The notes beneath the pieces are model-generated. The model searched no databases and had not been told where the DNA came from. It was given only the letters and a program-made list of their open reading frames with translations. This document shows positions 1-5,813 of a DNA stretch of 7,552 nucleotides, piece by piece (position 1 is the stretch's first letter; every line of letters starts with the position of its first letter). Source of the DNA: Promethearchaeota archaeon (GTDB lineage: Archaea > Asgardarchaeota > Odinarchaeia > Odinarchaeales > JBHLKK01); NCBI GenBank assembly GCA_048939465.1, contig JBHLPL010000094.1:1-7552 (forward strand). Direction: 5' to 3'. The translations under genes and the position numbers were made by a program.

Positions 1-63
1 ATATGCTTGACCAACGGTCAAGCAAACCATTAGAAAAACAACCGTCAACAAAGATAGACGCAT
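1..63 (-). CDS. 5' end of a probable secreted or membrane protein (partial, continues off the left edge)
   Basis: ATG at 63 reads MRLSLLTVVFLMVCLTVGQAY: basic N-terminus, hydrophobic core and a GQA cleavage-like end. GGGAGG at 80-75 lies 11 nt upstream. The frame is also open further upstream (in-frame ATG at 177), so the start is not certain. Confidence 0.5.
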   Translation of the reverse strand, partial: MRLSLLTVVFLMVCLTVGQAY

Positions 64-157
64 CTTCCGGTAAGCCTCCCTAGTGAGTGATCTCATGCCG
101 CAATGAGCATCGGAAATATTTGCCTTTAAGAAAAGTCTCAAGAATCTGGGATTCCAG

Positions 158-177
158 GTAAGTGTGGGAGGGCTCAT
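158..177 (-). other. Predicted guide segment of the omega RNA (ATGAGCCCTCCCACACTTAC)
   Basis: Sequence immediately 3' of the inferred right end. TnpB guides are known to derive from the right-end flank. The 20-nt length is assumed. Confidence 0.45.
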
Positions 178-392
178 GTAAACTACTCCTCCCTTGCAGA
201 AGGAGCTTATGACTGTGCTTGACCGCAATTCCCTCTCAGGCTTTGGCCTCATCGCATGTCGAATCATGGGACGGTTTACAGCGCCCCAGCCCGGTAATCC
301 GCATATAGCGTCGGGCTATGGAGTCTACTCGCCCACCCTACCCGCAGGTCATCAACCGTTTCCACATCGGAGAGATGTGTGCCTTTAGACCT
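178..392 (-). ncRNA. Putative TnpB-type omega RNA (right-end RNA) scaffold
   Basis: Minus-strand hairpins: CACATC/GATGTG (379-363), AGCCCG/CGGGCT (317-288), TGGGGCG/CGTCCCA (288-267), AGGC/GCCT, and an 8-bp terminal stem with a GCAA GNRA loop (205-186). The loop GTAAAC (279-274) is complementary to the terminal GTTTAC (183-178), forming a pseudoknot. G-U pairs work only on the minus strand. The 5' end is estimated from the TATA box. Confidence 0.6.
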
Positions 393-414
393 GTTAGCAT
401 GTCTAGCGCAGAAG

Positions 415-421
415 TATTTAA
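415..421 (-). promoter_or_regulatory. Candidate TATA box for the omega RNA
   Basis: TTAAATA on the minus strand, about 25 nt upstream of the structured region. The upstream BRE match is weak. Confidence 0.4.
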
Positions 422-480
422 GGACCGCTCAATTCCTCTCCACCCTTTCAGACGAAGTCTCCATAAGGTGGTTTAGACGA

Positions 481-1377
481 ATGGTATCAGGCGCCGTAAT
501 AACAGAGCCGATAACAGATCAAATCCTATTAATCAAAGGAGAAAACAACGGCAAATTTCCTTATTCCAATTCTATTCTAATCTTGGATAACGAGATCGTC
601 ATAATTGACACAGGCTGCGGAATCAAGATCTTAAGGCAACTAAGAGAGGAATATGATATTGGTTACATCATAAACTCCCATACGCATCCAGACCACTCGG
701 CAGGCAACTGGGTGTTTGAAGACAAGCCAATTCGCGTTCCAGAACAGGGATTTGACACAAGCGGAAACTCTGTGTCCCTCTCAGAGAGGTTTGTTAGCAA
801 TGAACTTGCCCCCCTCTGGAGAAAGATGGTCAAGGATCTAATGGGATTCAGGGATTGCAAGCCGACCAGTACATATAATGAGAGGACAATCTTTGATTTT
901 GGCAAAACGATCTTCAAGCCCATTCATACACCAGGACATACGAAGGACCACTACTGCTTCTATGAGGAAAGGAGAAGAATACTCATATCTTTTGATTATG
1001 ATCTGACTGGATTTCCCTGGTATGGCCATAGAGAATCGAATCTTCAAGAGTTCAAAGAGTCAATAGTGAAAATCAAGGCTCTGTCCCCTGAAGTCGTAAT
1101 ATCGTCTCATAGGGGAGCCATTAGTCAAAACATCGATTATGAATTTGACCAATTCTATGGAAAAATAGATGAAAGGGATGAAAGAATATTATCCCTACTG
1201 ACCGAAAAGAAGAATATTGACCAGCTTGTGGAGTCTGCTCCAATTTACGGTAGATTCCCCTATGTTGAGCCGCTTCTTCGTTATTGGGAAGAACAGATGA
1301 TCATGAAGCATTTAAGGCAACTGGCGATTCGGGGAGAAATAGAAAGAGATGGGGATCTCTATGGTCGCACTGGATAG
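481..1377 (+). CDS. MBL-fold metallo-hydrolase with probable C-terminal winged-helix region (298 aa)
   Basis: Motifs IDTGCG, SHTHPDHSAGN (HxHxDH), HTPGHTKDH and SSHRG. The start is moved from 379 to ATG 481 because 379-480 is the IS hairpin/promoter region and AAGGTGG (465-471) precedes ATG 481. Confidence 0.88.
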   Translation: MVSGAVITEPITDQILLIKGENNGKFPYSNSILILDNEIVIIDTGCGIKILRQLREEYDIGYIINSHTHPDHSAGNWVFEDKPIRVPEQGFDTSGNSVSLSERFVSNELAPLWRKMVKDLMGFRDCKPTSTYNERTIFDFGKTIFKPIHTPGHTKDHYCFYEERRRILISFDYDLTGFPWYGHRESNLQEFKESIVKIKALSPEVVISSHRGAISQNIDYEFDQFYGKIDERDERILSLLTEKKNIDQLVESAPIYGRFPYVEPLLRYWEEQMIMKHLRQLAIRGEIERDGDLYGRTG

Positions 1378-3797: not shown

Positions 3798-3928
3798 ATA
3801 GGACGATAAACCACAATCTAATTCGTTTACGATTCTGGTTAAGGTCTTAATATTAGCATTCTGTTATTTCCTTAAGTTGTGGATCCGGAATCCTGTTGAA
3901 GGTTTCGCTTTGCGAGGTGAGCTCCACT

Positions 3929-4468
3929 TTGGAAGAAGAGACAATAGAAGAAAAGAAAGCAAGAGGTCTTATTGAGCTGAGAGGATATACGCTGGTTGAG
4001 AAAGAGAAACAAGAGGGAATTACAAGATATATATTCAAAGTCCCCGAAGGTAAGAAGGGAGTGATTTTTGCGATACATCGAAAAATCGTTGGAGTCTCCA
4101 GCATTAAGAAATTATTAGCATTTATGGAAGAAAAAGGGATTGAAAAGGGGATCATTGTAGCCGAGAAGAAATACAGTGCAGCAATCAAAAAGGAAGCCAA
4201 GGCTCAGAAGATTGAGCTGATTCCCGGCCGTCTTCCCCCATCAAATATCTTCAAACACGAGCTAGTACCGGGCCACGAGATACTTACACCCGAGGAGGTC
4301 GAAGAGTTATTACAGAAGTATAGGATAGATCTAAATCAACTTCCCCAGATAAAGGTCTCAGATGTGGCCGTTATAGCCATTGGCGGAAAGAGCGGAGACA
4401 TTATTAAGATCACAAGAAGAAGCCCTACAGCGGGAGAACATATAGCCTACAGATTGGTGGTTCCTTAA
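3929..4468 (+). CDS. rpoH: DNA-directed RNA polymerase subunit Rpo5/RPB5 with N-terminal jaw-like domain (179 aa)
   Basis: C-terminal [47 protein letters not shown] is the RpoH/RPB5 assembly domain. About 105 N-terminal residues carry RGY and VGV..GIIV patterns like eukaryotic RPB5. TTG 3929 follows the RBS GAGGTGA (3914-3920). Confidence 0.9.
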
Positions 4469-4652
4469 CGCCCATCGGCAATTTAACGGGTCAGCAGATA
4501 AAACCATTCTTCAGATGTTCAAAAAGAGTTTCAGCAATGCAGACGACCATAGAACGAACCCTTAGTGTATGACCTAGCTGCCTCAGAAGCAATTCTTGGT
4601 TTCGTTCATCTAAGCAACCTCAAGGAGATCCAGCCTGAAAGGGCAGAGTAGT

Positions 4653-5813
4653 TTATTCCTTTTCCTCGAGTTCTTGATATATTTCTCTCTGGATTACAAA
4701 CCTTTGAACCTCGCTTGTACCTCCGCCAATTCTCATAAGACGGGAATCTCTCATGAGCTTCTCCACGATTGTCTCATTGGTGTAGCCAATTCCCCCCAAC
4801 ACTTGAAGAGCATCATCACAGACCTGAAAGGCCGTCTCTGTTGCAAACAATTTTGCCATAGATGCTTCTTTCGTTGCTCTCAAACCCCGATCTATCATTC
4901 TTGCCGCTCTGAGAGTTAAAAGCCTTGCCGCTTCTATTTTTGTGCCCATATCTGCTATTCTGAAGCTAATAGCCTCGAACCTTCTAATCGGACGCTTAAA
5001 TTGAATTCGCTCTGAAGAGTGCTTCACAGCGGTTTCAAAAGCACCCCTTGCATAGCCTACAGCTTCACCTGCAATTGCTATCCTCTCGGAGTCTAACTCA
5101 TCCATTAGGATGTTGAAACCTTGATTTTGTCCCTTCAATATGTTTTCTTCGTCTATCCTATAACCTTCAAGAACGAAGTGTGTATTCCTGCATCCTTTCA
5201 TGCCCATCAAATCGAAGTCCTTTACAATCCTGAAGCCAGGCCTATCACACTCGATGATGAAAGCAGTCATACCCTTTCTCGGATCTACGTTCGGATCCGT
5301 TATGGCGAAAAGGATCATATAGTCTGAGACACTGCCGTTTGTAATAAATCGCTTTTCTCCGTTTATAATCCAGTCATCCCCATCCTTTACAGCCTTCGTC
5401 TCCATGGCGGCTACATCTGAGCCAGCATTTGGTTCAGTTATGGCGATTGCTCCAATCTTCTCACCCCCGATTATTGGGGTCAAGTATTTCCTTTTCTGCT
5501 CTTCTGTGGCATTCCGATTGATAGATATGCCGTAGAGCGTCGCTGAAGTCATACGAGACATGTCCAAACTAGGACTTACCGCCGAGATTTCCTCTGCTAA
5601 TATGGTTTCGTATACCATTCCTCTGTTGGATCCGCCGTATTCCTGAGGGTGCATTATTCCAAGAAAACCCTCTTTACCAAGATTTCTGATGATATCCCTA
5701 GGATACACATTCTTCTTCTCGATCTCGTCAACCTTTGGCACAACTTCTCTACGAACAAAGTCTTTTGCTTCTTCTCTAAACTCCAGTTCCTCATCGGAGA
5801 ATAACAAGGTCAT
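4653..5813 (-). CDS. Acyl-CoA dehydrogenase, isovaleryl-CoA dehydrogenase-like catalytic arrangement (386 aa)
   Basis: AITEPNAGSD, NGEKRFITNG, RIQFKRPI, QVLGGIGY and RDSRLMRIGGGTSEVQR. The helix-G Glu is present in LDSER. Confidence 0.95.
   Translation of the reverse strand: MTLLFSDEELEFREEAKDFVRREVVPKVDEIEKKNVYPRDIIRNLGKEGFLGIMHPQEYGGSNRGMVYETILAEEISAVSPSLDMSRMTSATLYGISINRNATEEQKRKYLTPIIGGEKIGAIAITEPNAGSDVAAMETKAVKDGDDWIINGEKRFITNGSVSDYMILFAITDPNVDPRKGMTAFIIECDRPGFRIVKDFDLMGMKGCRNTHFVLEGYRIDEENILKGQNQGFNILMDELDSERIAIAGEAVGYARGAFETAVKHSSERIQFKRPIRRFEAISFRIADMGTKIEAARLLTLRAARMIDRGLRATKEASMAKLFATETAFQVCDDALQVLGGIGYTNETIVEKLMRDSRLMRIGGGTSEVQRFVIQREIYQELEEKE

What the first reader, a model, noticed from the sequence alone, without database searches (positions are those of the whole stretch)
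158..421. Orphan TnpB-type omega RNA with its own candidate promoter and no nuclease gene
Seen in sequence: the minus strand has a TTAAATA box (421-415), then about 210 nt of stacked hairpins, ending in an IS200/IS605-style right end. A 7-bp hairpin exposes GTAAAC in its loop, which pairs with the terminal GTTTAC. Related ends more often read GTGAAC/GTTCAC, so this looks like a compensatory change that preserves the pseudoknot. Established: TnpB omega RNAs end at the right end, contain such a pseudoknot and use the flank as guide; stand-alone omega RNAs are described for OMEGA systems. Inference: this locus could load a TnpB or TnpB-derived protein encoded elsewhere with the guide AUGAGCCCUCCCACACUUAC, as a trans-acting guide cassette in an archaeon.
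Basis: partly seen in the sequence, partly recalled or inferred. Interest (0 to 1): 0.8.

Follow-up and report, generated by a model that had tools for sequence, protein, structure and literature searches.

The report
Gene-less IS605 mini-transposon with guide RNA
The stretch is one of about 18 copies of a 299-base, protein-less miniature of an IS200/IS605 "jumping gene" in an Asgard archaeon; it keeps the transposon ends, the promoter and the guide-RNA scaffold of a TnpB nuclease encoded elsewhere in the genome, which is a well-supported example of a kind already described.

Summary
On the minus strand there is a TTAAATA box (421-415), about 214 nt of hairpins, a hairpin loop GUAAAC (279-274) and a terminal GUUUAC (183-178).

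The feature is larger than reported. It is a sharply bounded 299-nt element (476..178, minus strand) lying just 3' of a TCAY target (480-477). The genome holds 15 full-length copies, 3 divergent ones and several fragments.

- **Mobility:** a congeneric genome has the exact empty site.
- **Origin:** the right ~215 nt match the 3' ends of intact tnpB genes. These include a full-length parent IS in this genome, split over contigs C70 and C55. The left ~85 nt are that IS's left end plus the tnpB promoter.
- **Structure:** the RNA fold is supported by covariation. So is the pseudoknot, with three Watson-Crick variants at one pair among distant relatives.
- **Constraint:** in orthologous copies the scaffold is better conserved than the TATA-to-start spacer.

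This is a PATE/MITE-type non-autonomous IS200/IS605 element carrying a TnpB omega RNA. Such elements are already described (Meers 2023; Dyall-Smith 2011), and this scan has already found them elsewhere in this genome.

It is a new member of a known kind, of modest interest.

The parts
477..480 (-). Target / transposon-adjacent motif just 5' of the left end. It reads TCGT here; the family consensus is TCAT/TCAC, usually preceded by T.
   Evidence: Empty versus filled sites place the boundary directly after this tetranucleotide. G001:C17 reads CATTCAC|ATGAGCCC. C31, C106 and C69 give the same boundary. The motif is TCAY in both the f1 and the f16 mini-elements.
178..476 (-). The whole 299-nt gene-less IS200/IS605 mini-element (PATE/MITE type).
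   Evidence: 15 full-length copies with unrelated flanks. There is no target duplication, and a congener has a precise empty site.
438..457 (-). Left-end subterminal hairpin (consensus CTCCGTCC-GAAA-GGGCGGAG). The window copy carries three C-to-T changes that turn G-C pairs into G-T.
   Evidence: Alignments. The same hairpin sits upstream of tnpB in the full-length IS on C70 and on G001:C109.
415..421 (-). TATA-like box TTAAATA, the tnpB promoter of the parent IS.
   Evidence: In the full IS the same box lies about 22-27 nt upstream of the tnpB ATG. In f1 and in the diverged f16 mini-elements, a TATA box ends exactly 24 nt before the conserved GTCTAAAGG block. No transcript data.
390..392 (-). 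Predicted transcription start (inferred).
   Evidence: It lies about 27 nt downstream of the TATA centre. Cross-family BLAST similarity starts at window 391 (query position 93).
184..391 (-). Omega-RNA scaffold. The 5' part (about 391-320) derives from the last tnpB codons, from the second zinc-finger Cys-Gly-His onwards. The core (319-184) holds helices 317-312/293-288, 310-308/302-300, 287-282/273-268, 261-245/224-210 and the right-end hairpin 206-198/193-185.
   Evidence: RNAalifold found 27 pairs, 15 of them with compensatory changes. Of all cells, 91-93% are paired against about 40% when the partners are slid. Deletion junction.
274..279 (-). Pseudoknot loop GUAAAC.
   Evidence: It pairs with 183-178. 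The middle pair shows AU 11, GC 5 and CG 2 among 19 relatives.
178..183 (-). Right-end terminus GUUUAC: the 3' strand of the pseudoknot and the last bases of the transposon.
   Evidence: All copies end here and their flanks diverge immediately. Empty sites.
158..177 (-). Flanking host DNA that would be the guide (AUGAGCCCUCCCACACUUAC). The true guide length is unknown.
   Evidence: It lies directly 3' of the right end. The same sequence follows the TCAC motif at the empty site of G001:C17. There is no second genomic match with 0-1 mismatch over 16 nt.

Best explanation
Window 476..178 (minus strand) is a non-autonomous IS200/IS605 mini-transposon of the PATE/MITE type.

**How it arose.** It came from an IS1341-like, tnpB-only element by an internal deletion. 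The deletion removed the tnpB reading frame from about its start codon to the second zinc-finger motif. This fused the left end, with its TnpA-recognition hairpin and the tnpB TATA box, to the last ~215 nt of the element. Those 215 nt encode the TnpB omega (guide) RNA scaffold and the right end.

**Shown here.**
- Its boundaries.
- Its copy number.
- Presence/absence polymorphism between congeners.
- Homology to tnpB 3' ends.
- The conserved, covarying RNA fold, including the pseudoknot.

**Inferred.**
- The TATA box drives a transcript of about 214 nt that starts near 391 and reads across the right end into the flank.
- That RNA is bound in trans by the TnpB of the parent IS (contigs C70/C55; 381 aa, RuvC motifs present).
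- Its flank-derived guide then directs cleavage of the vacated site (TCAY + ATGAGCCC...) whenever a Y1 transposase excises the element. The only such transposase found is the tnpA on C105. Repair from a sister copy would then restore the element. [quoted passage not shown]
For: **Repeat family with sharp ends and unrelated flanks**
-.

**Mobility**
- Empty site in congener G001:C17, with the TCAC motif joined directly to the window's right flank.
- The reverse also holds: sites filled in G001/G002 are empty in this genome, at C31, C106 and C69.

**Parent IS**
- C70 and C55 overlap by 77 identical nt and together give left end + tnpB (381 aa) + right end.
- The same layout sits on a single contig in G001:C109.
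- Pfam finds Cas12f1-like_TNB and OrfB_IS605 domains.
- The E and third-D RuvC motifs align to solved Cas12f/TnpB-family structures. The GVDLGV motif is read directly from the sequence.

**Deletion junction and promoter**
- In the IS the TATA box lies about 22-27 nt before the tnpB ATG. The mini-element joins TAAAGGCA to CACACC of the zinc-finger codons.
- The TATA-to-GTCTAAAGG spacing is identical (24 nt) in two diverged mini-element lineages whose spacers are unrelated.

**RNA structure**
- 30 of 46 pairs changed on both sides; 0 of 500 shuffles reach the observed values; slid controls give about 40% paired.
- The pseudoknot covaries.
- The model finds the 3' ends of distant tnpB genes.

**Constraint in vertically inherited copies**
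- Scaffold identity is 87-90%, against 70-74% for the TATA-to-start spacer, in two orthologous pairs (Fisher p = 0.02 for the first pair).

**Possible mobiliser**
- The sole tnpA element (C105) has left- and right-end hairpins like those of the mini-element.

**Literature**
- Archaeal PATEs arise from IS605-type elements by deletion of the core (PMC3119063).
Against:
- Copies are only 72-86% identical, so most insertions are old.
- Within the genus, 79 one-sided and 17 two-sided changes break pairs, against 103 and 11 that keep them. Several copies have a broken pseudoknot. Many copies are therefore decaying.
- The window copy's left-end hairpin has three G-T mismatches as single-stranded DNA, which may impair mobility.
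- The mini-element's helix 261-245/224-210 is shorter than in the parent IS, so compatibility with that TnpB is assumed.
- The parent tnpB is joined from two contigs and could be a chimera of two copies.
- The spacer used as a 'neutral' yardstick is only 30-34 nt long.
Confidence: 0.85

Rival explanations
1. Inert fossil. The copy is a dead remnant of a past burst of mini-transposon activity. It is no longer mobile and no longer produces a guide RNA that any TnpB uses. Its structure looks conserved only because it was inherited from once-active master copies.
For: - Copy divergence is 14-28%.
- Many pair-breaking changes and broken pseudoknots occur in sister copies.
- Heavily deleted remnants exist: C139:9820-9895 and window 4610-4656.
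- Only one tnpA was found in the 91%-complete assembly.
- The window copy's left-end hairpin carries three C-to-T changes.
Against: - The window copy is among the five best-scoring of 20 in this genome (159.5 bits), with its TATA box, all helices and the pseudoknot intact.
- Orthologous copies keep the scaffold better than the spacer.
- Presence/absence differs between congeners in both directions, so the family was mobile after the species split.
- An apparently intact cognate tnpB is present.
Confidence: 0.3
2. Mobile promoter or regulatory insertion. The main consequence of this copy is on its neighbours. Its outward-reading promoter transcribes the flank at 177..1, and the 299-nt insert separates the metallo-beta-lactamase-fold gene (481-1377, plus strand) from the gene formerly abutting it.
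For: - The insertion lies exactly between a stop codon and the next ATG. G001 reads ATG-TGA-ATG at the empty site.
- The promoter geometry is conserved.
Against: - The upstream gene is already a decayed remnant in this genome (stops in 1-180).
- Insertion sites of other copies are unrelated.
- Nothing suggests selection for a regulatory effect.
- This reading does not explain conservation of the RNA fold.
Confidence: 0.1
3. Domesticated guide for a nuclease-dead, TnpB-derived regulator (TldR-like). On this reading the flank-derived guide represses a host promoter.
For: Stand-alone guide RNAs with their own promoters are the hallmark of TldR systems (preprint 10.1101/2023.11.30.569447, seen only as title and abstract).
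Against: - The cognate TnpB keeps the RuvC D/E/D motifs.
- The 16-nt guide has no other match in the genome with 0-1 mismatch.
- The element is mobile and multi-copy, and each copy has a different flank.
Confidence: 0.03

Closest known systems
PATE-like gene-less IS200/IS605 elements carrying omega RNAs in Geobacillus stearothermophilus (ISGst families; Meers et al. 2023, PMC10055086)
   Same: - Protein-less, with the left and right ends of a co-resident tnpB element.
- Keeps the omega-RNA scaffold that ends at the right end.
- Needs TnpA and TnpB supplied in trans.
- Inserts 3' of a short TAM without a target duplication.
   Different: - The host is an Asgard archaeon (the congener is a Candidatus Hodarchaeota MAG), not a bacterium.
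- The RNA appears to be driven by the archaeal TATA-type tnpB promoter, brought next to the scaffold by the deletion.
- The TAM is TCAY and the right end is GTTTAC.
- Nothing has been tested experimentally here.
Haloarchaeal PATEs (HqIRS families of Haloquadratum walsbyi; Dyall-Smith et al. 2011, PMC3119063)
   Same: - Archaeal, with near-terminal palindromes related to those of IS605/IS1341-type elements.
- No target duplication.
- Derived by deletion of the core of the parent IS.
- More numerous than the parent.
- Strain-specific insertions.
   Different: - A different phylum and unrelated sequences.
- The 2011 description predates the recognition of omega RNAs, so guide-RNA content was not analysed there.
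TnpB omega RNA / reRNA of tnpB-encoding IS200/IS605 elements (ISDra2 type), and the haloarchaeal sotRNAs (Rfam RF02656/RF02657)
   Same: - Encoded over the tnpB 3' end and the right end.
- Multi-helix scaffold with a pseudoknot next to the guide.
- The guide is the DNA flanking the right end.
   Different: - There is no tnpB upstream, and the RNA has its own promoter rather than being processed from the tnpB mRNA.
- No Rfam family matched the window at E <= 1.
- The comparison with the ISDra2 structure rests on my own knowledge and was not tested here.

Membership tests
PATE / MITE-type non-autonomous IS200/IS605 element | Too short to encode a transposase or nuclease; no conserved ORF. | tested here: met
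   The element is 299 nt. The tnpB-tail frame ends after 26 codons, and the first ATG after the predicted start gives 9 codons (sequence). No Pfam TnpA or TnpB hit lies in the window.
PATE / MITE-type non-autonomous IS200/IS605 element | Subterminal hairpins at both ends, related to those of a co-resident IS605/IS1341-type element. | tested here: met
   The left hairpin is CTCCGTCC-GAAA-GGGCGGAG and the right hairpin is CTCCTTCTGCAAGGGAGGAG. Both are shared with the full IS on C70/C55 and G001:C109, and both resemble those of the tnpA-tnpB element on C105.
PATE / MITE-type non-autonomous IS200/IS605 element | Inserts 3' of a short conserved motif without a target-site duplication; precise empty sites exist. 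| tested here: met
   Empty sites: G001:C17 for the window copy, plus C31, C106 and C69 for copies in congeners. The motif is TCAY and no duplication is seen.
PATE / MITE-type non-autonomous IS200/IS605 element | Multiple dispersed copies with unrelated flanks. | tested here: met
   This genome has 15 full-length and 3 divergent copies. Congeners hold 5-16 copies, and a second family (f16) holds up to 17.
PATE / MITE-type non-autonomous IS200/IS605 element | Mobilised in trans by a Y1 TnpA. | not testable with these tools
   Only one tnpA was found (C105:1180-1545), and its element has similar end hairpins.
TnpB omega RNA | Homologous to the sequence overlapping the 3' end of tnpB and running to the right end. 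| tested here: met
   Close homologues: C55, G001:C109, G034:C77 and G026:C33. Distant tnpB loci are hit by the covariance model.
TnpB omega RNA | Conserved secondary structure supported by covariation. | tested here: met
   93% of cells paired against 41-48% in slid controls, 30 of 46 pairs with changes on both sides, and 0 of 500 shuffles as high.
TnpB omega RNA | Pseudoknot between an internal loop and the bases immediately 5' of the guide. | tested here: met
   Six complementary bases, 279-274 with 183-178. One pair shows three Watson-Crick types across relatives (AU 11, GC 5, CG 2), and the other five pairs are invariant. The pseudoknot was not part of the model that made the alignment.
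TnpB omega RNA | Transcribed, bound by TnpB, and able to guide TAM-dependent DNA cleavage. | not testable with these tools
The promoter is inferred from its geometry only.
Rfam sotRNA families RF02656/RF02657 (haloarchaeal omega RNAs) | A match to the curated covariance model. | tested here: not met
   No match in the window at E <= 1. The element is not a member of those particular families.

The most novel reading that the evidence does not exclude
The mini-elements are not mere debris. They would be a selected, dispersed set of self-promoted guide-RNA units. Here they outnumber their cognate nuclease gene by about 18 to 1. They have kept the same 'tnpB promoter fused to scaffold' design across at least two families of Asgard archaea. 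On this reading TnpB-mediated homing maintains non-autonomous elements in trans, or the host has co-opted some copies.
Probability: 0.2. Interest if true: 0.55.

Novelty: new member of a known kind. Interest (0 to 1): 0.3.

Why it matters
This is a clean, comparative-genomics case of a guide RNA separated from its nuclease. The data give:
- exact transposon boundaries
- the TAM (TCAY)
- a full-length parent element
- a promoter captured by the deletion
- a pseudoknot supported by covariation

If the RNAs are expressed and loaded, a single TnpB in an Asgard archaeon would serve about 18 differently targeted guides. That would show that RNA-guided retention also works for gene-less elements in archaea. 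It would also supply a compact, natural TnpB and omega-RNA pair with a defined TAM for testing.

The concept is already in the literature for bacteria, and this scan has already reported the same kind of element elsewhere in this genome. It extends known biology rather than changing it.

Tried and rejected
- **Rfam scan of the whole window.** It returned only a chance snoRNA-like hit at E = 0.57. Neither the sotRNA families nor any other family matched.
- **Single-sequence folding of 158-421.** The z-scores were -1.2 and +0.6, which are uninformative, so structure was judged from alignments.
- **Pseudoknot covariation within the family.** None was found. Both hexamers are almost invariant, and the departures only break pairs. 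Distant relatives had to be fetched with the covariance model.
- **Guide targets elsewhere in the genome.** Over 16 nt, 2 or 3 substitutions were the closest second-site matches. I therefore rejected the idea that the guide addresses a second locus.
- **Minus-strand ORF 1..267 (89 aa).** It had no Pfam hit and is not conserved in the congener. The plus strand there is the decayed 3' end of a radical-SAM-type gene, so I rejected this ORF as a gene.
- **Sigma-70 promoter scanner.** Not used, because the host is an archaeon (RNA polymerase Rpb5/RpoH domain at 3896-4468).
- **Upstream flanks of the second orthologous pair.** They could not be aligned because of another insertion.
- **Organism name.** The search for related loci gave only three close tnpB loci, but it did name the congener.

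Full report
**Observation**

- TTAAATA at 421-415.
- A run of hairpins.
- GTAAAC at 279-274, in the loop of the hairpin 287-282/273-268.
- A terminal GTTTAC at 183-178.
- The flank ATGAGCCCTCCCACACTTAC at 177-158.

The window is the whole contig C25. It contains no tnpB or tnpA match.

**A bounded repeat, not a single locus**

BLAST and a profile search of the genome found 15 full-length copies at 72-86% identity. They also found three divergent full-length copies and several fragments.

In a flank-inclusive alignment, similarity starts and stops abruptly. All copies end in ...GGAGTAGTTTAC and begin with TCAT-CTAAACCACC.

The exact ends come from empty sites:
- In the congener G001 (contig C17), the metallo-beta-lactamase-fold gene that starts at window 481 lies next to the window's right flank. 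Only ...CATTCAC|ATGAGCCC... lies between them.
- Conversely, sites filled in G001/G002 are empty in this genome at C31, C106 and C69.

These comparisons put the left boundary directly after a TCAY tetranucleotide and show no target duplication. The element is therefore window 476..178 (299 nt). The target motif lies at 480-477 and reads TCGT here.

**Origin**

Contigs C70 and C55 overlap by 77 identical bases. Together they give a full-length IS consisting of:
- the same left end;
- a 381-aa tnpB with GVDLGV, VIEDL and NSDLNGARN motifs;
- the same right end.

The congener carries this layout on a single contig, G001:C109, with 82% protein identity. Its protein has the Pfam Cas12f1-like_TNB and OrfB_IS605 domains and aligns to solved Cas12f and TnpB structures across the E and last D motifs.

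Aligning the mini-element to the full IS shows what was lost:
- Similarity runs through the left hairpin and the TATA box, to within a few bases of the tnpB ATG.
- It resumes at the codons for the second zinc-finger Cys-Gly-His.
- The junction reads TAAAGGCA|CACACC, with a short similarity (GGCA/GGACA) on both sides.

The 'own promoter' is therefore the tnpB promoter. In the IS it sits about 22-27 nt upstream of the ATG, the geometry of a leaderless archaeal gene.

Other deletion derivatives exist:
- C5:935-1316 keeps part of the zinc-ribbon coding sequence.
- C84:8667-8770 and C41:8644-8747 are 105-nt elements with only the two hairpin ends.
- C139 and window 4610-4656 hold still smaller remnants.

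**RNA structure**

I aligned 37 sequences: mini-elements from three genomes of this genus, mini-elements from a second family, and the tnpB-linked right ends.
- RNAalifold predicted 27 pairs, 15 of them with compensatory changes, all between window 317 and 185.
- On the 142-nt core, 91% of cells form pairs, against about 40% when partners are slid by 1-3 columns. There are 113 cells changed on both sides, against 11-41 in the slid controls.
- Within this set the pseudoknot hexamers are almost invariant, so they say nothing either way.

A covariance model of the nested structure (R1) was then run on 150 genomes of the phylum. It found 20 copies in this genome and weaker hits in other families. 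These weaker hits lie at the 3' ends of tnpB genes whose proteins are only 25-33% identical to the parent TnpB.

In those relatives the loop/tail pair reads GUGAAC/GUUCAC or GUCAAC/GUUGAC, where this family reads GUAAAC/GUUUAC. At that one pair the counts are AU 11, GC 5, CG 2 and one non-pair. The pseudoknot was not part of the model, so this covariation is not an artefact of the fit. The tnpA-tnpB element on C105 in this same genome ends in GTTCAC.

**Promoter**

No transcript data could be obtained. The indirect evidence is:
- the correspondence with the tnpB promoter;
- the start of cross-family conservation at window 391;
- identical spacing in two lineages. Mini-elements of the second family have an unrelated, longer spacer and a different TATA box (TTTAAATA). 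In both lineages the box ends exactly 24 nt before the conserved GTCT(A/C)AAGGCACACC block.

**Constraint**

Among the 25 copies of this genus the picture is mixed:
- Paired positions differ from the consensus less than unpaired ones do (0.10 against 0.15).
- 103 one-sided changes keep pairing and 79 break it.
- 11 two-sided changes keep pairing and 17 break it.

Two orthologous, vertically inherited pairs are more telling:
- C66 against G001:C22: core 90.1%, 5' scaffold 86.8%, left end 86.2%, TATA-to-start spacer 73.5%. The coding flanks are 84-88% identical.
- G002:C115 against G001:C10: 86.6%, 89.9%, 81.0% and 70.0% respectively.

The scaffold thus evolves more slowly than the adjacent spacer (Fisher p = 0.02 for the first pair). 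The spacer is short, however, and gene conversion between copies is not excluded.

**Function**

The 16-nt guides of the 15 full-length mini-element copies and of the parent IS on C55 match only their own flank. No second site has fewer than two mismatches.

The window's guide matches the sequence that follows TCAC at the empty site of the congener. That is exactly the target expected under the retention model shown for bacterial IS605 elements. There, TnpB cuts the vacated donor joint and recombination restores the element. [quoted passage not shown]

I adopt this as the most likely mechanism, with the transcription, binding and cleavage steps marked as inferred. The main rival is that this copy is an inert fossil. 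A regulatory (TldR-like) role is disfavoured by the intact RuvC motifs and the lack of a second target.

**Comparison and novelty**

The element meets every sequence-testable criterion for two known kinds:
- a PATE/MITE-type IS200/IS605 derivative, as described for Haloquadratum (PMC3119063) and Geobacillus;
- a TnpB omega RNA.

It does not match the Rfam sotRNA families (these families are named in PMC12558985).

The host is an archaeon, since an Rpb5/RpoH domain lies in the window. The congeneric genome is labelled a Candidatus Hodarchaeota MAG, and related tnpB loci are in Borrarchaeota MAGs.

Earlier notes of this scan describe the same kind of element on other contigs of this genome, with the same conclusion. 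I reached my reading before looking them up. It is a new member of a known kind. The promoter capture, the defined TCAY motif and the pseudoknot covariation are useful details, not new principles.

Noticed in passing
window 4605-4656 (+): A 47-nt one-hairpin remnant of the same family. It has TTCAT, then CTAAGCAACCTCAAGGAGA, a single hairpin, and ...GAGTAGTTTAT. It lies between the Rpb5-domain ORF and the end of the acyl-CoA dehydrogenase gene. It looks like a left-end/right-end fusion through the similar hairpins. The profile hit is positions 1-43, E = 0.003.
   Followed up: partly
window 178-180 and 4653-4655: The complement of the right-end terminus GTTTA(C/T) supplies a TAA stop codon for the gene on the opposite strand. 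At 178-180 it replaces the TGA seen at the empty site in G001 (ATG-TGA-ATG). At 4653-4655 it is the stop of the acyl-CoA dehydrogenase ORF.
   Followed up: partly
window 1-180 (+): The decayed 3' end of a radical-SAM/activase-like gene. In congener G001 the frame is open (...DLMPYHELGINKYKML...NLGFMVSIGGLM*). Here it has several stops and an internal deletion, and only the last ~20 codons are recognisable. The 89-aa minus-strand ORF 1..267 is therefore spurious.
   Followed up: partly
own genome: about 40 places matching only profile positions 1-80, e.g. C71:13470-13546 and C59:389-472: Many solo matches to the left end plus TATA box, followed by a different downstream sequence. This suggests at least one more mini-element or IS family sharing this left end. 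Earlier scan notes mention about 222-nt elements ending in TAGTTCAC in this genome.
   Followed up: no
own genome C105:1008-1043 (L025): A right-end fragment of this family (GACTCCATCCGGAAGGGTGGAGTAGTTTAC) lies immediately upstream of the left end of the only tnpA-tnpB (IS605-type) element, whose own right end finishes in GTAGTTCAC. This may be a nested or adjacent insertion.
   Followed up: no
own genome C139:9820-9895: At a site that holds a full mini-element in both G001 and G002, this genome keeps only about 22 nt (CCAAACCA + GAGGAGCGGTTTAC). This is an internal deletion rather than a clean empty site.
   Followed up: no
window 3896-4468 (+): An ORF that combines an Mrr_cat/restriction-endonuclease-like N-terminal domain with the RNA polymerase Rpb5 C-terminal (RpoH) domain.
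   Followed up: no
L060 (G001:C17), about 60 nt into the orthologue of the 481-1377 gene: The congener's copy of the metallo-beta-lactamase-fold gene has an in-frame TAA where the window has GAA (...LLLKG*KNGKF). It may start further downstream or be damaged there.
   Followed up: no
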